IMG/VR virus record: IMGVR_UViG_3300042922_001018
DNA length: 64,000 bases
Origin: a virus
Lineage: Duplodnaviria; Heunggongvirae; Uroviricota; Caudoviricetes
Strand: one strand, 5' to 3'
The notes under the pieces are model-generated. The model saw nothing but the letters and a program-made list of their open reading frames with translations. It was not told the DNA's origin and did not search any database. Position numbers and translations under genes: made by a program. Positions 16,627 to 51,837 of this stretch are shown here, piece by piece (position 1 is the stretch's first letter; each line of letters begins with the position of its first letter).

Positions 16627-17172
16627 TTACGACTTGACGTTGTTGATGTCAGTGAGCAGTTGGCTTGCGCTGCGGCCGGAGGGGAGAACTGCTCTCAACC
16701 GGTCGTTCTCGTGGAGGATTTCGCTGCTCTCAGACGTACGGATGAACACTTCACCGTTACCCGAGTGGCTCACAGCAGTCCATCCGTTCGCGAATCCGCG
16801 GACAAGAAGAGTCGTGCCTTCCGTCGGGGTGAAAGCGATAGAAGAGTTCATAAGAGCCTTCTGCGCTGTCGTAGGGGTACCGAGGTTCGGTCCGAACACC
16901 AGCGTAGCATAGTTGCCGTCGTTCTCGGCCATGTACGCAGCTTGCGCCGTCGCGACGCGGTCAAGGTCGGCCTTCGCGTTCAGGTTGTGCGCGTTCCCGA
17001 TGAAGCCGCTGATGGCGAAGGAACCGCCCACGAGCAGGATGAGCGTGATAGCGATACCCGCGATGATGAGGATGGGGTCGGTGGCACCGCGCTCCTTGCG
17101 CAGGCGTGCGATTTCGGCCTTGCGGGCCTTCAGGTGTTCAAGCATGGAAATCTTTCGGGTTGGGAGTGTCAT
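16627..17172 (-). CDS. type IV pilin-like protein (copy 7)
   Basis: ERG|ATDPILIIAGIAITLILLVGG...AKADLDRVATAQAAY; ATGA overlap with the upstream pilin. Confidence 0.88.
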   Translation of the reverse strand: MTLPTRKISMLEHLKARKAEIARLRKERGATDPILIIAGIAITLILLVGGSFAISGFIGNAHNLNAKADLDRVATAQAAYMAENDGNYATLVFGPNLGTPTTAQKALMNSSIAFTPTEGTTLLVRGFANGWTAVSHSGNGEVFIRTSESSEILHENDRLRAVLPSGRSASQLLTDINNVKS

Positions 17173-17699
17173 GAGCGGATGTCCGCAATGTCGGTCATCA
17201 CGGCGTTCCAGGTGATACCTGATGGCATCAGTACGCCAGCGGCTTCGTTCGTAGCGGGCGTAGTCGCTGGAATAGCGACGATGTTGGACGACACTGACGT
17301 ACGCAGAAACACAGTTCCCGAGGCGGAGAGCGTTACTGCCACCCAGCCGGAACTGGAGACACGAGCGCGCGAGGTACTCCCAGCGGTCGGCGTGAATCCA
17401 ATGGACGAGTTCTGAAGCTGGGTGTTCTGACCCGATGCATTCGGCCCAACCGCAAGGACCGCGTAACGGTCGTTCTCGGCGAGGTACGCAGCTTGCGCAG
17501 TCGCCATGCGGTCAAGGTCACCCTTGGCGTTCAAGTCGTTTGCATTGCCGATGAAACCGGAGATGGCGAAGGAACCGCCCACGAGCAGGATGAGCGTGAT
17601 AGCGATACCCGCGATGATGAGGATGGGGTCGGTTGCACCGCGCTCTTCACACAGGCGCGCGATTTCGGCCTTGCGAGCCTTCAGCTTGTCAAGCATCAT
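17169..17699 (-). CDS. type IV pilin-like protein (copy 6)
   Basis: Same conserved leader and helix; divergent C-terminus. Confidence 0.88.
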   Translation of the reverse strand: MMLDKLKARKAEIARLCEERGATDPILIIAGIAITLILLVGGSFAISGFIGNANDLNAKGDLDRMATAQAAYLAENDRYAVLAVGPNASGQNTQLQNSSIGFTPTAGSTSRARVSSSGWVAVTLSASGTVFLRTSVSSNIVAIPATTPATNEAAGVLMPSGITWNAVMTDIADIRS

Positions 17700-18202
17700 G
17701 ACCTCACGTTGTTGATGTCGGAGAGAAGCTGGGTAGCCGTAAGACCATCAGGAAGTACGACGTTTCCTCTGTCGGCCGATTCGTAAATCTGGCTCTGCGC
17801 AGAGCTACGGATGAATACCTTGCCAGAAGCAGAGTGTGTCACCGCCACCCAGCCGCTAGCGGTGAATCGGACGATGAACGTGTTCCCGGAAGTTGGCCGG
17901 AAGCCGATGGAAGAGTTCTCCAGGGCCAGGACGGGTGTGTTGATGTTCGGCCCAGAGACGTAGGTGGCGTAGGTGTCGTTCTCGGCGAGGTACGCAGCCT
18001 GGGCGGTCGCGACACGGTCGAGGTCACCCTTCGCGTTCAGGTCATTCGCGTTCGCAATGAAACCGCTGATAGCAAAGGAACCACCGACGAGGAGGATAAG
18101 GGTGATGGCGATACCCGCGATGATGAGGATGGGGTCAGTGGCGCCGCGCTCCTCACGCAGGCGCGCGATTTCGGCCTTCTTGGCCTTCAGTGCGTCAAGC
18201 AT
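17696..18202 (-). CDS. type IV pilin-like protein (copy 5)
   Basis: Same conserved leader and helix; divergent C-terminus. Confidence 0.88.
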   Translation of the reverse strand: MLDALKAKKAEIARLREERGATDPILIIAGIAITLILLVGGSFAISGFIANANDLNAKGDLDRVATAQAAYLAENDTYATYVSGPNINTPVLALENSSIGFRPTSGNTFIVRFTASGWVAVTHSASGKVFIRSSAQSQIYESADRGNVVLPDGLTATQLLSDINNVRS

Positions 18203-18235
18203 GTTGAGAGAATCTTTCAGGTTGGGGGGAGAGAA

Positions 18236-18274
18236 CCGAAGCCCTGGTCTAAGGGTATCAGACCAGGGCTTCGG
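18236..18274 (-). terminator. hairpin after pilin copy 4
   Basis: ccgaagccctggtct / agaccagggcttcgg. Confidence 0.7.
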
Positions 18275-18298
18275 GACCGCGCGTTAGCGCGGAGCGGT

Positions 18299-18826
18299 TC
18301 AGAGCGCGTTGATGGCGGTGAGAACTGCGGTGGCGAACGTGGTGTTCGCCGCGGCGTTGCCAGCGTTCGGCAGCACCAGCGTGCCCGGAAGGGCCGCGAT
18401 GTTGTTGCCCTGCGAGCCGACCTCGATGATGGCCGTGCCGGACGAGGTGCGCGCGTAGCGGGTGCCCGACGCGGACTCGGTGACAGCGACCCATCCGCCG
18501 GAAGCGGTCGGGGTGGTCAGGATGGTGAGCGAGTTGCCCGCGGTCGGCGTGAAGCCGATGGACGAGCTGCCCAGCGTCGCAACGTTGTTCGAGTAGGAGT
18601 CGCGCTCGGCGAGGAACGCGGCCTGAGCGGTCGCGACGCGGTCGAGGTCACCCTTGGCGTTCAGGTTGTTCGCGTTCGCGATGAAGCCGGAGATGGCGAA
18701 GGAGCCACCAACGAGCAGGATGAGGGTAATCGCGATACCCGCGATGATGAGGATGGGGTCAGTTGCTCCCCGCTCCTCGCGGAGGCGTGCGATTTCGGCC
18801 TTCTTGGCCTTCAGCTTGTCAAGCAT
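18299..18826 (-). CDS. type IV pilin-like protein (copy 4)
   Basis: Start MLDKLKAKK at 18826 with AAGGA RBS; conserved N-terminus. Confidence 0.9.
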   Translation of the reverse strand: MLDKLKAKKAEIARLREERGATDPILIIAGIAITLILLVGGSFAISGFIANANNLNAKGDLDRVATAQAAFLAERDSYSNNVATLGSSSIGFTPTAGNSLTILTTPTASGGWVAVTESASGTRYARTSSGTAIIEVGSQGNNIAALPGTLVLPNAGNAAANTTFATAVLTAINAL

Positions 18827-18872
18827 GCGTGGATGGTTCCTTTGGGTTGGTGGAGAGGAAGTCTCTCCATAA

Positions 18873-18896
18873 AGTAAATGGGCAGGCAGGTTCCAC
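18873..18896 (-). promoter_or_regulatory. conserved pilin upstream motif (variant copy)
   Basis: GTGGAAC-N3-CCTG-N2-CATTTACT. Confidence 0.7.
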
Positions 18897-18936
18897 AAAG
18901 AGAGGTTTCTTGTGTCCCCTCTTCGGGGGACAACGA

Positions 18937-18970
18937 CGAATCCCCCGCCCAGCGAAGGGCGGGGGATTCG
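18937..18970 (-). terminator. hairpin after pilin copy 3
   Basis: cgaatcccccgccc-agcgaa-gggcgggggattcg. Confidence 0.75.
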
Positions 18971-19004
18971 GTTTCCGCTAGAGTGTCGGTCCGTTGTCCG
19001 TGGG

Positions 19005-19520
19005 TTACGGGATGGCGACAACCGCGTCGCGGACCTGCGTCGCGGTGATGCCGGTCGGGAGCGTCAGCGTGCCACCGACGTAGGCGACGGTCGCGGTGGC
19101 ACCGGTACCGGTCACGTTGGCGTCGAGGACGGTCGTGGAAGCGGAGGTACGGACGTACTTCTGTCCGGAGGCCGACTTCGTGACGGCGACCCAGCCGGTG
19201 CTGCCGCTGGCGAGGATGGTGATGGGGTTGCCCGCGGTCGGCGTGAAGCCGATGGACGAGCTGCCCAGCGTGGTGACGCTGTTCGAGTAGGTGTCACGCT
19301 CGGCGAGGAACGCGGCCTGGGCGGTCGCGATGCGGTCGAGGTCACCCTTCGCGTTCAGGTTGTTCGCGTTCGCGATGAAGCCGCTGATGGCGAACGAGCC
19401 ACCCACGAGCAGGATGAGGGTGATGGCGATACCCGCGATGATGAGGATGGGGTCCGTTGCACCGCGCTCTTCGCGGAGGCGTGCGATTTCGGCCTTCTTG
19501 GCCTTCAGCTTGTCAAGCAT
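19005..19520 (-). CDS. type IV pilin-like protein (copy 3)
   Basis: Start MLDKLKAKK at 19520; conserved N-terminus. Confidence 0.9.
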   Translation of the reverse strand: MLDKLKAKKAEIARLREERGATDPILIIAGIAITLILLVGGSFAISGFIANANNLNAKGDLDRIATAQAAFLAERDTYSNSVTTLGSSSIGFTPTAGNPITILASGSTGWVAVTKSASGQKYVRTSASTTVLDANVTGTGATATVAYVGGTLTLPTGITATQVRDAVVAIP

Positions 19521-19566
19521 GGATGGTTCCTTAGGTTGGTCGGGTGGAGAGCTTGTCCCTCCACCT

Positions 19567-19590
19567 AGTAAATGTACAGGTGTGTTCCAC
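19567..19590 (-). promoter_or_regulatory. conserved pilin upstream motif
   Basis: GTGGAACACACCTGTACATTTACT. Confidence 0.75.
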
Positions 19591-19638
19591 AAAAAGTGAG
19601 CGCGCTTGTCCCCTCTTTGGGGGACAAGCCTTAGACAC

Positions 19639-19675
19639 AACGAATCCCCGACCCAGCGAAGGGTCGGGGATTCGT
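19639..19675 (-). terminator. hairpin after pilin copy 2
   Basis: aacgaatccccgaccc-agcgaa-gggtcggggattcgtt. Confidence 0.75.
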
Positions 19676-19713
19676 TGAACCGATGGTGGTCGGTGTGGCC
19701 TTGGCCGTGAGGC

Positions 19714-20208
19714 TTACAGCGCGCCGAACGCGGTGGCCACGTTCGCTGCGTTGATGCCGGTCGGCAGGGTGCCGGGCACGGACTCGGTGATGGTCGTCGA
19801 GGCCGAGGTACGGACGTACTTCGTACCCGAAGCCGACTTGGTCATGGCGACCCAGCCGCTCGGCGACGCGAAGAGGCGGATGGGGTTGCCCGCGGTCGGC
19901 GTGAAGCCGATGGACGAACCGCTCAGGGCGGTCAGCGCGGTGGCCTGGGTGTAGGTGCCGACACCTTCACCCGCGTAGGAGTCACGCTCGGCGAGGAACG
20001 CGGCCTGGGCGGTCGCGATGCGGTCGAGGTCACCCTTCGCGTTCAGGTTGTTCGCGTTCGCGATGAAGCCGCTGATGGCGAAGGAGCCACCGACGAGCAG
20101 GATGAGCGTGATGGCGATACCCGCGATGATGAGGATGGGGTCGGTTGCACCGCGCTCTTCGCGGAGGCGTGCGATTTCGGCCTTCTTGGCCTTCAGCTTG
20201 TCAAGCAT
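19714..20208 (-). CDS. type IV pilin-like protein (copy 2)
   Basis: Start MLDKLKAKK at 20208; conserved N-terminus. Confidence 0.9.
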   Translation of the reverse strand: MLDKLKAKKAEIARLREERGATDPILIIAGIAITLILLVGGSFAISGFIANANNLNAKGDLDRIATAQAAFLAERDSYAGEGVGTYTQATALTALSGSSIGFTPTAGNPIRLFASPSGWVAMTKSASGTKYVRTSASTTITESVPGTLPTGINAANVATAFGAL

Positions 20209-20256
20209 GTGTGTGGTTCCTTTGTAGGTTGGTGTGGAGAGCTTGTCCCTCCACCT

Positions 20257-20280
20257 AGTAAATGTACAGGTGTGTTCCAC
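20257..20280 (-). promoter_or_regulatory. conserved pilin upstream motif
   Basis: GTGGAACACACCTGTACATTTACT, identical to the 19567 copy. Confidence 0.75.
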
Positions 20281-20318
20281 AAAATGTGAACGAGGTGTAA
20301 CAAGACGATTGCATAATG

Positions 20319-20362
20319 CACAAGGAAGGCTCCCCAGCCGAAGCCAGGGAGCCTTCCTTGTG
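20319..20362 (-). terminator. hairpin after pilin copy 1
   Basis: cacaaggaaggctccc / gggagccttccttgtg. Confidence 0.75.
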
Positions 20363-20377
20363 GTGCGACGCTGCTAC

Positions 20378-20935
20378 TTAGCCAGCGGTGCGGATGTCAG
20401 TGACGATGGCCTGGACTGCGGCCAGGTCGATGCCCGTCGGGTACGTCAGAGCCGGGGAGATGGTGGTTCCCGATGCTCCAGCCGAGGCGATGGTGGTGCC
20501 GGTGGAGCTGCGTACGAAGACTTCGCCCGAGTTCGAGCGAGTCACAGCGACCCAACCCGAGTTGTTGGTGCCCACGACGACCTTGGTGCTGTTGCCAGCG
20601 GTCGGCGTGAAGCCGATGGAAGAAGTCTGGAGCTGGGTGTTGGCCTGGACGCCCGCGGTGGCGGAGTCTGCGTCCACGTTCGGTCCTACGACGAGGACTC
20701 CGTAGCCGTCCTTCTCGGCGAGGAATGCGGCCTGGGCAGTCGCGATGCGGTCGAGGTCACCCTTCGCGTTGAGGTTGTTCGCGTTCGCGATGAAGCCGGA
20801 GATGGCGAAGGAGCCACCAACGAGCAGGATGAGGGTAATGGCGATACCCGCGATGATGAGGATGGGGTCCGTTGCACCCCGCTCATCACGCAGACGCGCG
20901 ATTTCGGCCTTCTTGGCCTTCAGCTTGTCAAGCAT
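20378..20935 (-). CDS. type IV pilin-like protein (copy 1)
   Basis: MLDKLKAKKAEIARLRDERG|ATDPILIIAG... Confidence 0.9.
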   Translation of the reverse strand: MLDKLKAKKAEIARLRDERGATDPILIIAGIAITLILLVGGSFAISGFIANANNLNAKGDLDRIATAQAAFLAEKDGYGVLVVGPNVDADSATAGVQANTQLQTSSIGFTPTAGNSTKVVVGTNNSGWVAVTRSNSGEVFVRSSTGTTIASAGASGTTISPALTYPTGIDLAAVQAIVTDIRTAG

Positions 20936-33333: not shown

Positions 33334-34194
33334 TCAGTCGTCGCTGAAGCCCCAGTCGTCATCCTCATCGTAGTCGTCGTCGTCCTCATCGTAGTGAGTC
33401 TCGGTGTACTCGACATCGGAGGCTTCGAGAACGACGTAGCGGGTGACGCGCACCTTCTGGTAGTTGCAGTCGCGCGGGACGCTGACGACATCGCGAGGGT
33501 TCACGCGGACGCGGAGGAGCACGCCCTGAGCGAAGCCACTGGCGTATGCGTAGGTGCCTGCGTGCAGTCCTCGCGAGCAGCCACGGTCGATGTTCGAGTC
33601 CACGTACGAACGCTGAATCTCGATGGTCGAGCCGACCTGATTGAGGAGGTGTCCGCGGGTCGGGACGCCGTCGATGATGCCAGGGCCGGAGTGGATGCTG
33701 CGGTAGTCGCGACGGACACCCTTATACGCGATGAAGTCGCCGTCGTTGGTGATGGCGAAGTCGAAGCGGCGCAGGAAGCCGTAGAGCGACTGACGGGACG
33801 CCTCGGAGGGGTTCTGGTAGAGCTTCTCCAGGAACCGCACTGCGGGCTTCCACTTGTCCTCATCGCCGATGCCGTACTTCTCGATGGTACGGCGGATGAA
33901 GCGGGCGATGCCTTCGTCGATGGGGTCGTGGTCGTAGAGGACGTTCGTGCCGTCGTACGTGATGTTGTCGGAGAGCTTCGCGAGCCGGTCACCGATGACG
34001 ACTGCCAGCGAGAGAAGCTCCTCGATGCGTTCGATGTCGTCGGTCTTCTCCACCTCCAGCAGCTCCAGCACCCGGTTGTAATGAGGGCTGTCGCTCAGGA
34101 CGGTCAGCGGAAGGCCCGTCGGCCGATAGATGGTGATGGCCGATGGGATGTTCTCGCCCTCGCCGGGCGTGTACGTGCTGTACGGAAGTACCAT
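33334..34194 (-). CDS. rIIB: rIIB-like protein
   Basis: NPS...LYGFL...ITNDGDFIAYKGV...CSRGLHAG...VNPRDVVSVPRD. Confidence 0.9.
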   Translation of the reverse strand: MVLPYSTYTPGEGENIPSAITIYRPTGLPLTVLSDSPHYNRVLELLEVEKTDDIERIEELLSLAVVIGDRLAKLSDNITYDGTNVLYDHDPIDEGIARFIRRTIEKYGIGDEDKWKPAVRFLEKLYQNPSEASRQSLYGFLRRFDFAITNDGDFIAYKGVRRDYRSIHSGPGIIDGVPTRGHLLNQVGSTIEIQRSYVDSNIDRGCSRGLHAGTYAYASGFAQGVLLRVRVNPRDVVSVPRDCNYQKVRVTRYVVLEASDVEYTETHYDEDDDDYDEDDDWGFSDD

Positions 34195-34224
34195 GATTGT
34201 GTCCTCTCGGGCCTCAGTCTAGCA

Positions 34225-36645
34225 TCACTCTACGACGTTGAGAAGCTGGTCGTAGGCAGCGTTCACGTAGAGCACCGCGTGCTTGATGCGACCGTCTCCG
34301 CGCTCCAGCCCAGACAGCAGCGGGTACCGCTCGATGATGGTCAGCTCAGTGATGTAATCGTGAACGGCAAGAACACGCTCGCGCTGGTCTTCAGTCAGCC
34401 CGAGGGTGTGAACGTTCTGCTGCACCGTCGTAGTGAAGTTCTCCTTGTCACCCCGCCAGTAGCTCACACGGGCGCCCTTGCGGAGCATCGCGAGGAACTG
34501 TTCGACGGAGTGAGAGGGACGCTTCCCGCCTTCGCGGAAGATAGGGTCTTTCAGCTCGTCAAGGCGTGGTTCCAGCTTCATCATGACGGCCTGGGACTTC
34601 GACTCGGTCCACAGCGCCATCGAGGTGTCAGCGGCTTCGAACTCATCCACGAGACTCTCGAAGAGTTCAGTGACGACCTCATCGAGCGGGCGAATACCGG
34701 GCGCGTCCTGGATGAGGTCTTCGAGCTTCTGTGAAGCACGCAGCACGATGACACGATAGCCCGCACGGCTGACCTGCTTCATGACATCGAGGGCGAGTTC
34801 TGCCGCCAGCCGTCCAGGGTGCGCGCCACGGTCCGCGAGCTTCGCCACGAGGTCTGCGGCGGTACCCGTTGCGGCCTGCGAGTCGGGAAGGACGTAAGCC
34901 ATCTTCCCGCCGCCACCGACACGCTCGTTCTCCAGGAGCGCCCGTTGGGTCTCGGTTGCATCCTCAGGGATTTCGACGCGCTCCCCCAGGATGAAAGTCT
35001 CCATCTCGGAGTTGTCCATCGAGTCGGTGTTCAGGCGCGCCCGGTCGGAGGTAGATGACAGCGCAGGCTGGAGGACCGAGTAGTCTCGCTTCTCGCGGGC
35101 CGCACGCTTCACGTAATCGCTTCGCGACCGCCGCGCCGAAGCATCCCGTCGGTACTCGCGCCGCTCCTCCATCGCCTCTTCTTCGATGCTCTGGACCGGC
35201 ACGAACTGTGCCAGCTCACGGAACCACGGGGAGAAGTCCTCGGGGCGTCCGAGCGTGATGTAGCGCGTCGTCGTTTCGACGGTCTCGACACCCGCGCGGC
35301 GGAGCCACCGCTCGTAGTCGCGGATGTCGCGTTCAGCGTTGCTGATGGTCTTCGAGTAGTCGTCGGGCAGCGTGTACACGACCGTCAGCTCATCGAGAGT
35401 CTCCGGGGCGTCGTGGGTGTCCGCGTGCTTGATGGAACGCGCCGTGTACCGGGTTCCGGTGTTGCGTGGTGCCACCTCAGACAGGTAAGGCGGGCGCACA
35501 TAACGAAGGTGGTCTTCCGGCGTCACGGCGATGAACTCGCCTGTTGCCTTGCCTTCCTCGTTGAGCCTCGGCCGCTCCTGGGCGGGGAAGAACGGGACTT
35601 CCCCCTTCGTAGGAATCACTTCACCGTGCCACGTGCTCAGCTCCTCCTGGAGGAACTTCGGAAGGGAGCTGTGGTAGAGCAGCGCTTCGTTCCGCGATGA
35701 GTTCTCGATGCGGGCCGCGGCCTGCACACGGAACTCTTCCACCCATGCCTCAGCGATGCGCGTGATGGTTTCGCGGCTCTGGGACACTGCCCGAATGCCT
35801 TCACGGCTGGTCTCAACCTTGACCTGGCCGTTCGGAAGTGAGAGGAAGATGCGCTTCGCACCGTCGATGCGCGACACAACGCCGCCGTCGAGTTCGGACG
35901 TGATGTCGTACCGGACGCCGAGAATCTCGGCTGACGCGCCCTTGAACCCTTCCACCGCGTCTTCGTCGAGTGCGTACCAGCCATGCTCACCGATGCGCTG
36001 GAACTGCGTCGGGTTGTGCAGGCTGTACTTCGGCGCCTGGCCGTTGACGAGGATGCTGCCGGGCGGGTAGGAGATGAACAGGTTCTCGGCAGCGGCCTGC
36101 ATCGCATCGACATCCGCAACGGGGATGCAGACGGTGACACCGTTCGGCTCATCCGTCTCCTCGTAACCGATGAACTTGAAGTCGGGGATGCCGTCTTCGT
36201 CGCGGATGACCGCGATGGTGTGCTTCTCGCCGTTCTTGATGGTGATGAGCGAGAACGACGGCGTGATAGCGAGTGGGGACTTGGACCCGAGGCCGAACCC
36301 GCCGCGTTCCTCATTCGAGCCACGCTTATCGGATGCGCCGACCTTCGAGTAGGTGTCGCGGATGTCCGCCTTCGACATCCCTGTTCCCCAGTCCTGAATC
36401 ACGAGGACCGGGTTGAGCGAACTCGGCAGAGAGATTTCGATGGGACGGGTCTGCTTCGCGCGGATGTGCGCGTCGGCAGCGTTCGACCCCAGCTCTTGCA
36501 GGATGGCTCGCCACGGGTTCTTGTACAGCGACTCCGAGATGGACTGGAGGAGGAAGACCGTAGCTTCCTCGTCGATGGTCAGCTTGATGCTGTCCTTGAC
36601 ATCGACGTTGTCTTCGACCGTACCCTTGATGCTTTCGATAATCAT
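34225..36645 (-). CDS. rIIA: rIIA-like protein (GHKL ATPase N-terminus)
   Basis: LYKNPWRAILQELGSNAADAH, DWGTGMS, GGFGLGSKSP; adjacent to rIIB. Confidence 0.88.
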   Translation of the reverse strand: MIIESIKGTVEDNVDVKDSIKLTIDEEATVFLLQSISESLYKNPWRAILQELGSNAADAHIRAKQTRPIEISLPSSLNPVLVIQDWGTGMSKADIRDTYSKVGASDKRGSNEERGGFGLGSKSPLAITPSFSLITIKNGEKHTIAVIRDEDGIPDFKFIGYEETDEPNGVTVCIPVADVDAMQAAAENLFISYPPGSILVNGQAPKYSLHNPTQFQRIGEHGWYALDEDAVEGFKGASAEILGVRYDITSELDGGVVSRIDGAKRIFLSLPNGQVKVETSREGIRAVSQSRETITRIAEAWVEEFRVQAAARIENSSRNEALLYHSSLPKFLQEELSTWHGEVIPTKGEVPFFPAQERPRLNEEGKATGEFIAVTPEDHLRYVRPPYLSEVAPRNTGTRYTARSIKHADTHDAPETLDELTVVYTLPDDYSKTISNAERDIRDYERWLRRAGVETVETTTRYITLGRPEDFSPWFRELAQFVPVQSIEEEAMEERREYRRDASARRSRSDYVKRAAREKRDYSVLQPALSSTSDRARLNTDSMDNSEMETFILGERVEIPEDATETQRALLENERVGGGGKMAYVLPDSQAATGTAADLVAKLADRGAHPGRLAAELALDVMKQVSRAGYRVIVLRASQKLEDLIQDAPGIRPLDEVVTELFESLVDEFEAADTSMALWTESKSQAVMMKLEPRLDELKDPIFREGGKRPSHSVEQFLAMLRKGARVSYWRGDKENFTTTVQQNVHTLGLTEDQRERVLAVHDYITELTIIERYPLLSGLERGDGRIKHAVLYVNAAYDQLLNVVE

Positions 36646-49921: not shown

Positions 49922-49966
49922 CGGTGCGCTCCTGTCTTGACGGCCGCGGATTTCACAACCGTGTTG

Positions 49967-50038
49967 TGGAGAGGGTGGGACTTGAACCCACATCCTTACG
50001 CTGAAGAACGCGTTGCTCTGAACCTGAGCTACCTCCCC
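49967..50038 (-). ncRNA. atypical tRNA-like RNA with an 8-nt anticodon loop
   Basis: Good acceptor, D and T arms; anticodon arm ACGC-GTTCTTCA-GCGT. Confidence 0.7.
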
Positions 50039-50341: not shown

Positions 50342-50415
50342 TGCAGCTAAGAGGACTTGAACCTCTGACCTCCACCGTGTCAAGGTGGCGCTCTAACCGC
50401 CTGAGCTATAGCTGC
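50342..50415 (-). tRNA. tRNA-Val(GAC)
   Basis: Cloverleaf; CCACC-TTGACAC-GGTGG. Confidence 0.93.
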
Positions 50416-50419
50416 GTGA

Positions 50420-50765
50420 TGCCCTAGCGAGCGACGCTCGCGTCGGACTTCACATGCGTTCGGTGAACGATGTGATGCCCTTGGAGCCTGCGCCGCGGTC
50501 GGCTCCAGAAGCGGTGAGCAGGGACTTTGCTCCCGGTGGACAGCCCGCACCTCCGCGGAGGTCGTTGCAACAGCAGGCCGTTAGTTCGCCAGAGACAACT
50601 CACACCCACCCCGCGCTCTGACAGACGGATTGTGGGAGAGCTACGACACGACACTCGACTTGTCCTCGTCGTGTTGCAGCCGTCTACAGCCTACCACGCG
50701 TGGTAGACATTGTGCCCTAGCGAGCGAAGCCCGCACCGGACCCGACATGCGGCCGTTGGCCGATG
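50420..50765 (-). ncRNA. structured spacer RNA with two homologous 53-nt covarying units
   Basis: Units at 50420-50472 and 50713-50765. Confidence 0.55.
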
Positions 50766-50768
50766 GTG

Positions 50769-50841
50769 TGCCCTCGACAGGAATCGAACCTGCGACCTCT
50801 GGTACCGGAAACCAGCCTTCTATCCACTGAAGTACGAGGGC
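50769..50841 (-). tRNA. tRNA-Arg(CCG)
   Basis: CTGGT-TTCCGGT-ACCAG. Confidence 0.92.
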
Positions 50842-50896: not shown

Positions 50897-50971
50897 GATT
50901 GCAAGAGGGGACTTGAACCCCTGGCCCATACGCCTTGTGGCGTCGCTCTTCCAACTGAGCTACAAGCAATC
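50897..50971 (-). ncRNA. tRNA-like RNA with a 4-nt anticodon loop and extended acceptor
   Basis: D arm GCTC/GAGC; ACGCC-ACAA-GGCGT; T arm AGGGG-TTCAAGT-CCCCT; ends GATTGC/GCAATC. Confidence 0.7.
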
Positions 50972-50997: not shown

Positions 50998-51064
50998 GAG
51001 AGACCCTGGGATTCGAACCCGGCGCCCGAAGGCGCTTCACCCGCGTGCTCGCGTTCAGTCTCTC
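50998..51064 (-). ncRNA. mini tRNA-like RNA with a UUCG tetraloop in place of the anticodon
   Basis: GAGAGAC/GTCTCTC acceptor; GCGCC-TTCG-GGCGC; GGG-TTCGAAT-CCC. Confidence 0.6.
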
Positions 51065-51142
51065 GGCCGAATGGTTACAGCCATCCGGTTGTATCGCCCG
51101 CTGTAACGAGCGACATGTACAGCGTACCACACGTCTCAGACA

Positions 51143-51412: not shown

Positions 51413-51443
51413 AGGGCGAGTGTACCACGGTTCCGCCGAAAGC

Positions 51444-51759
51444 GAACACACCTGTAAGCCGGGTTCTGTCCAGGACGCGAGTCCCTGGGCTGCCATCTTT
51501 CTGAAGCGCAGAGCGCCCCGCGGCTTAGCCGCTGCCACTTACCCGTCCATCATCGAGGCACGACGCCCTAGGACTGTTTGTGTTGCACCGGTCCTCACCC
51601 TACTTCTTAGGCTGGGCTTAGTGGTATGAAGGTGTCAAGTTCGGCACGTTAGTCACCGAATCAGTAACCAACGTGCCGACTCTGACACTCCCACATGGAT
51701 GTCGTGTTGGTGCCCGGACTTTCCTCAACGCTTATGCGCTGCGACAGCCTGGTGTGTTC
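51444..51759 (-). ncRNA. rnpB: RNase P RNA with a non-canonical specificity domain
   Basis: P1 GAACACACC/GGTGTGTTC; P2; P3; GAGGAAAGTCCGG and ACAGAACCCGGCTTA (P4); P5 GCACC/GGTGC-AA; P6 CACGAC/GTCGTG; GGGTAAG loop 15. Confidence 0.92.
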
Positions 51760-51837
51760 TGGAGGCGCTGACGGGATTTGAACCCGCGATTGTACGGTTT
51801 TGCAGACCGTTCCCTTTGGCCGCTCGGGCACAACGCC
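51760..51837 (-). tRNA. tRNA-Cys(GCA), CCA encoded
   Basis: ACGGT-CTGCAAA-ACCGT; U73. Confidence 0.95.

What the first reader, a model, noticed from the sequence alone, without database searches (positions are those of the whole stretch)
50420..50765. Two 53-nt units with compensatory base changes: candidate new RNA motif
Seen: CATCG-GCC-AAC-GGC-CG-C-ATG versus CATCG-TTC-ACC-GAA-CG-C-ATG (three covarying pairs, same bulged C), then GTCCG, a GCGRGC-NTC-GCTCGC hairpin and TAGGGCA. Each unit is also preceded by AGGGCA-N3, which in one case is the tRNA-Arg acceptor strand. Inference: a selected RNA structure such as a protein-binding site, processing element or ribozyme.
Basis: partly seen in the sequence, partly recalled or inferred. 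Interest (0 to 1): 0.7.

Follow-up and report, generated by a model that had tools for sequence, protein, structure and literature searches.

The report
Optional double-hairpin RNA behind tRNA ends
The two repeats are real copies of an undescribed 56-62-base double-hairpin RNA module that is gained, lost and swapped right behind tRNA-like ends in the tRNA clusters of a family of giant soil mobile elements; its shape is clearly conserved, but nothing yet shows that it is an enzyme.

Summary
Confirmed and extended. The two minus-strand units (50768-50713, 50475-50420; 41 of 53 bases identical, shuffles at most 33) are copies of an undescribed 56-62-nt two-hairpin module. I found 19 copies in the tRNA arrays of 11 related uncultured giant plasmid/phage-like elements, and none in Rfam, IMG/VR, three cultured Microbacterium phages or four related plasmids. 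Covariation is strong: 14 of 23 pairs change on both sides (0/500 shuffles). Each unit starts on the base after a tRNA-like discriminator, ends in a copy of that end, and keeps a bulged pyrimidine in each arm; loops are free. It is optional and turns over fast: either site can be empty, copies occur in tandem, one sits at a third site. Best reading: a shape-selected spacer module of the tRNA transcript, cut out by tRNA processing and spread by recombination through its 7-10-nt end repeats. A ribozyme is not excluded but lacks support. The ~207-nt stretch between the units is a separate, always-present RNA with two covarying pseudoknots, a better candidate for a new functional RNA. Earlier notes of this scan describe different hairpin modules in other phage tRNA arrays, not this one.

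The parts
50769..50841 (-). tRNA-Arg(CCG); its discriminator A (50769) is directly followed by unit 1 (site 1)
50713..50768 (-). Unit 1 (site 1), 56 nt: hairpin 1 with 3'-side bulged C, one purine, hairpin 2 with 5'-side bulged U, terminal purine; ends in a copy of the tRNA-Arg 3' end (8 of 10 nt identical)
50683..50712 (-). Degenerate extra half-unit; its hairpin (50708-50689) is nearly the same as the distal stem of hairpin 2 in the L036 site-1 unit
   Evidence: direct sequence comparison
50476..50682 (-). Separate ~207-nt conserved RNA ('core'), present in all 11 relatives. Loop-loop helix 50558-50553 with 50498-50493; pseudoknot 50523-50520 with its 3' end 50481-50478; ends in a tRNA-like purine + CCA in most relatives (TCA here)
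50420..50475 (-). Unit 2 (site 2), 56 nt, same architecture; flanked by a perfect 10-nt direct repeat (50481-50472 and 50425-50416)
50342..50415 (-). tRNA-Val(GAC), 4 nt after the terminal purine of unit 2
51439..51760 (-). Element-encoded RNase P RNA (class A-like; 91.5 bits, below the gathering score of 100; E 5.5e-28); context, and a candidate processing enzyme
51121..51130 (-). One of four copies of an extended -10-like motif in the array; candidate promoter for the cluster that holds the units (inference)
   Evidence: the generic sigma-70 scan found nothing

Best explanation
The unit is an optional, shape-selected spacer module of a polycistronic tRNA/ncRNA transcript. SHOWN: it runs from the base after a tRNA-like discriminator to its own copy of that end. 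It folds as an 11-bp hairpin (6 bp, bulged pyrimidine, 5 bp) and a 12-14-bp hairpin (6 pairs including U.G/A.G and G.A, bulged pyrimidine, 6-8 bp) joined by a single purine, so its 5' and 3' ends meet at a nick (a dumbbell). Its middle strand is complementary to the 10-nt end motif that stands both before and after it. It is present, absent, tandem or replaced among relatives without disturbing the upstream RNA's 3' end or the downstream RNA's leader. INFERRED: it is co-transcribed. Host or element-encoded tRNA-processing nucleases cut at the upstream discriminator and at or near its own acceptor-like end (site 2: RNase P at tRNA-Val). This leaves end-paired, nuclease-resistant termini on the neighbouring RNA and releases a ~60-nt RNA whose bulged stems are read by a protein. 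It is gained, lost and swapped at DNA level by recombination or slippage through the 7-10-nt end repeats.
For: Covariation: 14 of 23 pairs two-sided, 48 cells, 0/500 shuffles. One relative loses the U.G pair on both strands (L046 site 2), and another changes G-C to A-U in step with a different target end (L029 site 3). Strand bias: 15 G.U and 0 A.C in hairpin 2. Position: 18 of 19 copies lie at the two sites around the core RNA; the 19th follows another tRNA-like end. Turnover: site 1 filled in 9/11 and site 2 in 7/11. L036 and L037 are 99.8% identical in the next gene, yet their first site-1 units are 51% identical and differ in number. The L029 site-3 unit is 87% identical to a site-2 unit of another element but 45% to its own site-1 unit; at least 5 state changes on the tree. 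Empty sites keep exactly one copy of the repeat. Further contigs show an empty site 1 or an extra 59 letters. Hairpin 2 has 12 stacked pairs in most copies, the length of an acceptor+T minihelix (own knowledge).
Against: No expression, processing or binding data. Hairpin 2 lacks a T-loop and CCA is not conserved after it, so recognition by RNase P or RNase Z is uncertain. Empty sites are common, so the unit is not needed for processing at either site. No sigma-70 promoter was found by the generic scan. Many tRNAs in these arrays end in a similar motif and carry no unit. The sample is 11 related loci, three of them near-identical, so counts are not independent.
Confidence: 0.45

Rival explanations
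1. A selfish mini-element. The nicked dumbbell is excised and ligated into a ~58-nt circle (RNA, or single-stranded DNA) and re-inserted at tRNA-like ends, its middle strand serving as a guide to the 10-nt target. The structure is selected for its own propagation.
For: Head-to-tail tandem copies (L037, L038). Target-matched ends and a guide strand that can pair with the upstream repeat (93% of cells) or the downstream one (74%, 2 pairs two-sided). A copy at a third site with a site-2-like sequence. The 5' and 3' ends are adjacent. Insertion is silent for the neighbouring RNAs.
Against: Copy number is only 1-3 per array; no copy elsewhere in the 64-kb window. No reverse transcriptase, HUH transposase or integrase among the window proteins scanned (386 kb of the contig could not be searched). 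Pairing to both repeats follows automatically from a direct repeat. No joint suggesting a circle in the source run (contigs only).
Confidence: 0.2
2. A new class of small self-cleaving (or self-splicing) ribozyme that trims tRNA 3' trailers, as theta ribozymes do in gut phages.
For: Starts within 1 nt of a tRNA 3' end, the theta position (within 5 nt; PMC10879173). Invariant paired core around a G.A mismatch and a bulged pyrimidine. Bulged pyrimidines in both arms could dock. Dispensable where RNases exist.
Against: No HDV fold in the unit; hammerhead, hairpin, twister and pistol core words absent in 17 of 17 (words from memory); no Rfam hit. Loops vary freely, so no pseudoknot. Only one invariant unpaired base lies inside the unit. 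The hairpin-1 bulge is missing in L040 and L046 site 1, and L029 site 1 pairs up the internal loop.
Confidence: 0.13
3. Nearly neutral debris. It arose once as an inverted triplication of the tRNA end (direct copy, inverted copy, direct copy) or from a circularly permuted tRNA mimic, and is kept paired by template-switch repair or by selection only against misfolding of the neighbours.
For: The direct-inverted-direct layout is exactly what is seen. The middle motif equals the T-loop end, T-stem 3' strand and acceptor start of tRNA-Leu(TAG) in the same array. A closed 6-8-bp stem followed by U-purine-G resembles the closed acceptor of permuted tRNA mimics. Frequent loss.
Against: Template-switch repair perfects hairpins, yet both bulges, the G.purine mismatch (17/17) and the never-Watson-Crick U/A/G.G position persist while the stems turn over. 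The ancestral T-stem pairing is not maintained (62.7% paired, no better than shuffles).
Confidence: 0.12
4. A DNA-level recombination or nicking site (attC-like or REP-like) acting as a single-stranded hairpin during transfer of the element.
For: Extrahelical bases at fixed distances, free loops, strand asymmetry, modular exchange of distal hairpins; the element carries pilus and secretion genes.
Against: The foldable strand is the tRNA-sense strand and the borders coincide with RNA processing sites. No integron boxes, no cassettes between units, no dispersal over the replicon, no RAYT or integrase found nearby.
Confidence: 0.1

Closest known systems
E. coli tyrT trailer repeats / rtT RNA (Rfam RtT)
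   Same: Repeated structured unit behind a tRNA gene, linked to processing of the tRNA transcript (10.1101/2024.07.17.603846). From own knowledge: the repeats re-use the tRNA 3' end and are released as a small RNA.
   Different: No Rfam match. About 60 nt instead of about 170-180 nt; dumbbell with fixed bulges; on a mobile element; moves between sites.
Theta ribozymes (minimal HDV-like, tRNA-associated; PMC10879173)
   Same: Similar size; starts at a tRNA 3' end in a phage-like tRNA cluster.
   Different: No nested double pseudoknot, no L3/P1.1 and no J4/2 catalytic C in the unit.
REP/REPIN/BIME repeats (RAYT-associated)
   Same: Short imperfect hairpins in pairs, variable copy number, modular arrays in spacers.
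   Different: Confined to 2-3 tRNA-array sites rather than dispersed; direct rather than inverted end repeats; no RAYT seen in the scanned proteins.
Y RNA Ro60/Rsr-binding bulged helix; YrlA-type permuted tRNA mimics (PMC4201824)
   Same: The 5' strand of hairpin 2 resembles the vertebrate Ro60 motif; a closed stem followed by U-purine-G recalls the closed acceptor of permuted mimics in the same arrays.
   Different: Exact vertebrate motif in 2/17 and bacterial motif in 1/17; bulge in a different place; no T or D arm; no TROVE gene in the window scan or in four related plasmids.
mascRNA/menRNA (tRNA-like RNAs cut out by RNase P and RNase Z)
   Same: Small structured RNA proposed to be released by tRNA-processing enzymes.
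   Different: No cloverleaf and no T-loop; the weak Rfam hits lie on the real tRNAs, not on the unit.

Membership tests
HDV-like / theta ribozyme | 5' end within 5 nt of a tRNA 3' end | tested here: met
   Unit 1 begins on the base after the tRNA-Arg discriminator
HDV-like / theta ribozyme | Nested double pseudoknot with P1, P3, conserved L3, P1.1 and a J4/2 catalytic C | tested here: not met
   My descriptor finds no core in either unit. The single hit (50579) lies in the core RNA, where no P2 or J4/2 was found, the J1/4 bases covary with bases upstream of P1, and L3 pairs with a distant loop
HDV-like / theta ribozyme | Mg2+-dependent self-scission | not testable with these tools
   Needs an in vitro assay
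Hammerhead, hairpin, twister, pistol, hatchet, twister-sister ribozymes | Rfam match or conserved catalytic core words | tested here: not met
   No Rfam hit at E <= 10 over the unit. Core words 0/17 for hammerhead, hairpin, twister and pistol; a short hatchet-like word 5/17, not conserved (words from memory)
Y RNA (YrlA/Yrn1) | Rsr-binding motif plus tRNA-like T and D arms | tested here: not met
   Motif in 1/17; no T-loop; YrlA Rfam hit only 15.9 bits against a gathering score of 69, and mostly on tRNA-Val
Y RNA (YrlA/Yrn1) | TROVE/Ro60 gene nearby | tested here: inconclusive
   None among the window proteins scanned or in four related plasmids; the rest of the 450-kb contig could not be searched
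rtT / tyrT-type tRNA trailer repeat | Repeat carrying a copy of the tRNA 3' end, directly behind the tRNA | tested here: met
   5-10 of 10 nt identical between the upstream end and the unit's end
rtT / tyrT-type tRNA trailer repeat | Homology to Rfam RtT | tested here: not met
   No hit
rtT / tyrT-type tRNA trailer repeat | Released as a discrete RNA during tRNA processing | not testable with these tools
   No raw RNA reads were available
REP/REPIN | Many dispersed extragenic copies | tested here: not met
   Two copies in 64 kb
REP/REPIN | Cognate RAYT transposase | tested here: inconclusive
   None in the scanned window proteins; rest of the contig not searchable
tRNA / tRNA-like | T-loop and elbow, or maintained T-stem | tested here: not met
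   ARAGORN and Rfam do not call it; T-stem-like pairing no better than shuffles

The most novel reading that the evidence does not exclude
The unit is the smallest known self-propagating or self-processing RNA element: a ~58-nt dumbbell whose middle strand guides it to tRNA-like 3' ends, which is excised (by its own chemistry or by tRNA-processing enzymes), circularised at its nick and copied back into the element's DNA as monomers and tandem arrays.
Probability: 0.15. Interest if true: 0.85.

Novelty: new variant of a known kind. Interest (0 to 1): 0.52.

Why it matters
tRNA arrays of giant phages and plasmids hold many unannotated RNAs between the tRNAs, and how these transcripts are cut up is largely unknown outside theta ribozymes. 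This is a small, cheap-to-test motif with an 18-sequence covarying alignment and natural knock-outs (empty sites in close relatives). One in vitro transcription experiment separates ribozyme from passive substrate. If it is mobile through an RNA circle it would be a new minimal selfish element. The finding also exposes a ~207-nt double-pseudoknot RNA with invariant loops and no Rfam match, which may matter more than the repeats.

Tried and rejected
Rfam at gathering and E <= 10: nothing for the unit; only a weak HDV hit in the core RNA, rejected by covariation. Pattern scans: IMG/VR 0, 0 and 0 hits, one hit inside a phage coding frame and 49 chance hits with no model match. The one JGI metagenome scan gave 21 chance hits. 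GTDB: protein scan and core-RNA pattern both empty; the unit itself was not scanned there. BLAST of the spacer against plasmids and phages: nothing beyond tRNAs. Whole-record model searches of Curtobacterium and Arthrobacter plasmids and of phages A3Wally, Big4 and Zooman: no convincing unit or core (best E 0.013-0.08). No whole genome was held, and the contig could not be searched. No RNA holder listed; contigs laid cannot show expression. One search used a misregistered structure and is superseded. An early idea that the core RNA is closed by a long acceptor-like stem was dropped: that segment covaries with an upstream strand instead. A conserved mini-ORF was rejected because the ATG is not kept. 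'At least one unit is required' is not supported: all 11 have one, but this is expected about half the time under independence. Paper searches found no description of this motif.

Full report
Setting. The window is part of a 450-kb soil-metagenome contig. It carries a minus-strand array of 36 tRNA calls plus tmRNA and SRP RNA and an RNase P RNA just under Rfam's threshold. Its nearest plasmid matches over the array are Curtobacterium and Arthrobacter megaplasmids. Its RNase P RNA matches four Microbacterium phages. It has both pilus/secretion genes and rIIA/rIIB-like genes, so I call it a giant plasmid/phage-like element of a probably actinobacterial host without deciding further. The finding spans exactly the 353-nt spacer between tRNA-Arg(CCG) and tRNA-Val(GAC).

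Observation. The two units are real (41/53 identical; at most 33 in shuffles) and unique in the window. Each folds into two hairpins. The true unit is 56 nt, from the base after the upstream purine to its own terminal purine.

Homologs. DNA scans failed, so I used neighbouring proteins and fetched their contigs. Ten more distinct loci cover the spacer; the next gene is 60-99.8% identical in the pairs compared. Covariance models found 19 units, 18 distinct. No convincing copy turned up in IMG/VR, three cultured phages or four related plasmids. It is thus a lineage-restricted family so far.

Structure. On 15 distinct aligned copies, 14 of 23 proposed pairs change on both sides, 90.6% of cells pair, none of 500 shuffles reach this, and slid controls pair at 25-39%. 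Caveats: the alignment was fitted to the structure and some rows are close kin. Hairpin 1 is 6 bp, a bulged pyrimidine on the 3' strand, 5 bp and a free loop; 10 of its 11 pairs covary. One purine links it to hairpin 2: G-C, a position that is U.G, A.G or G.G but never Watson-Crick, two C-G, a G.purine mismatch, A-U or G.U, a bulged pyrimidine on the 5' strand, then 6-8 bp and a free loop. One copy has lost the wobble pair on both strands; another has switched G-C to A-U together with its target. Hairpin 2 has 15 G.U pairs and no A.C mismatch, which points to the tRNA-sense strand. The invariant bases are nearly all paired. The two bulges sit six bases either side of the central purine, and the ends meet, so the released unit would be a nicked dumbbell. 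Its middle strand is complementary to the 10-nt motif found before and after it and can pair with either copy; energy models put the two conformers close for many copies.

Behaviour across relatives. Site 1 (after tRNA-Arg) is filled in 9 of 11 and site 2 (before tRNA-Val) in 7 of 11; empty sites keep one copy of the repeat. L037 and L038 carry two and a half units in tandem, while L036, 99.8% identical in the next gene, carries one different unit. L029 has a unit at a third site, behind another tRNA-like end; it is 87% identical to a site-2 unit of another element and 45% to its own site-1 unit, and its end follows the local target. The states need at least five changes on the tree and are not more clustered than shuffles (the tree is partly unresolved). 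Distal hairpins are exchanged between positions. Further contigs show an empty site 1, a replaced site 1 or 59 extra letters. Many other tRNAs with similar ends have no unit.

How it most likely works. Shown: position, structure, strand, optional presence, turnover. Inferred: the unit is part of the tRNA transcript (a recurring extended -10-like motif lies upstream at 51130), tRNA-processing nucleases cut at its borders, and recombination through the short end repeats moves it. Because the insertion restores both the upstream 3' end and the downstream leader, it is tolerated. Because the bulges and mismatches persist while stems and loops turn over, something reads the shape, most simply a nuclease or RNA-binding protein. 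I give this 0.45. A self-propagating circle (0.2), a new ribozyme (0.13), near-neutral debris from an inverted triplication or a permuted tRNA mimic (0.12) and a DNA hairpin site (0.1) are the rivals. The origin question is separate: the middle motif matches the T-loop/T-stem/acceptor junction of tRNA-Leu in the same array and the closed stem recalls permuted mimics, but T-stem pairing is no longer maintained.

The core RNA. Between the units lies a ~207-nt RNA present in all 11 loci. It gives a weak HDV hit, which I reject: no P2 or J4/2 was found, the stem extends past the would-be cleavage site with covariation, and the loop pairs with a distant loop (G-C to A-U in two relatives). A second pseudoknot joins an internal loop to the 3' end, with 2 of 4 pairs covarying (9 sequences). 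It has invariant unpaired segments and no Rfam family, and deserves its own study.

Comparison and verdict. It works most like the tRNA-trailer repeats of E. coli tyrT (rtT RNA) and sits where theta ribozymes sit, but it fails the sequence or fold tests for every named family I tried. It is a real, undescribed, structure-conserved and mobile-looking RNA module with no demonstrated activity. Novelty: new variant of a known kind (structured tRNA-trailer repeat). Interest 0.52; 0.85 if the circle or ribozyme reading proves true.

Noticed in passing
window 50476-50682 (-): Undescribed ~207-nt RNA, conserved in all 11 relatives, with a covarying loop-loop helix, a covarying 3'-terminal pseudoknot, invariant palindromic bulge segments and a purine+CCA end in most relatives; no Rfam family.
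   Followed up: partly
window 51439-51760 (-): Element-encoded RNase P RNA missed at Rfam's gathering score; partial matches in four Microbacterium phages.
   Followed up: partly
window 50998-51100 (-): Conserved tRNA-like RNA with a T arm and an extra hairpin in place of a normal 5' half; present in L027, L029 and L032.
   Followed up: no
window 49966-50038 and 50897-50969 (-): tRNA-like genes whose anticodon loops vary in size and sequence among relatives (called Ser, Lys, Thr, Stop or undetermined).
   Followed up: no
L029 380-600 and 770-950; L027 2213-2415 and 2526-2706: Two further unannotated non-coding stretches, 87% identical between relatives, flanking tRNA-Arg(ACG) or its remnant.
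   Followed up: no
L036 1476-2371; L037 2773-3668; L027 end; L040 about 1026-1702: HNH-type or other genes inserted at tRNA genes with a duplicated tRNA 5' part (tRNA-Val in L036-L038, tRNA-Arg in L027).
   Followed up: no
L032 8094, L036 87, L038 404: The unit's central 10-nt motif recurs in a different single hairpin between tRNA-Pro and tRNA-Cys.
   Followed up: partly
window 57307, 51428, 51130, 50098 (-): Recurring extended -10-like motif upstream of tRNA clusters and a small gene; conserved in relatives.
   Followed up: no
L027 1068; L054 22332 and 22467: Circularly permuted tRNA-like RNAs (T arm, closed acceptor stem, D arm), two of them unannotated in the cultured phage A3Wally.
   Followed up: partly
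window 16627-20935 (-): Tandem run of about six near-identical pilin-like genes next to T2SS/pilus genes, on an element that also has rIIA/rIIB-like genes at 33334-36645.
   Followed up: no
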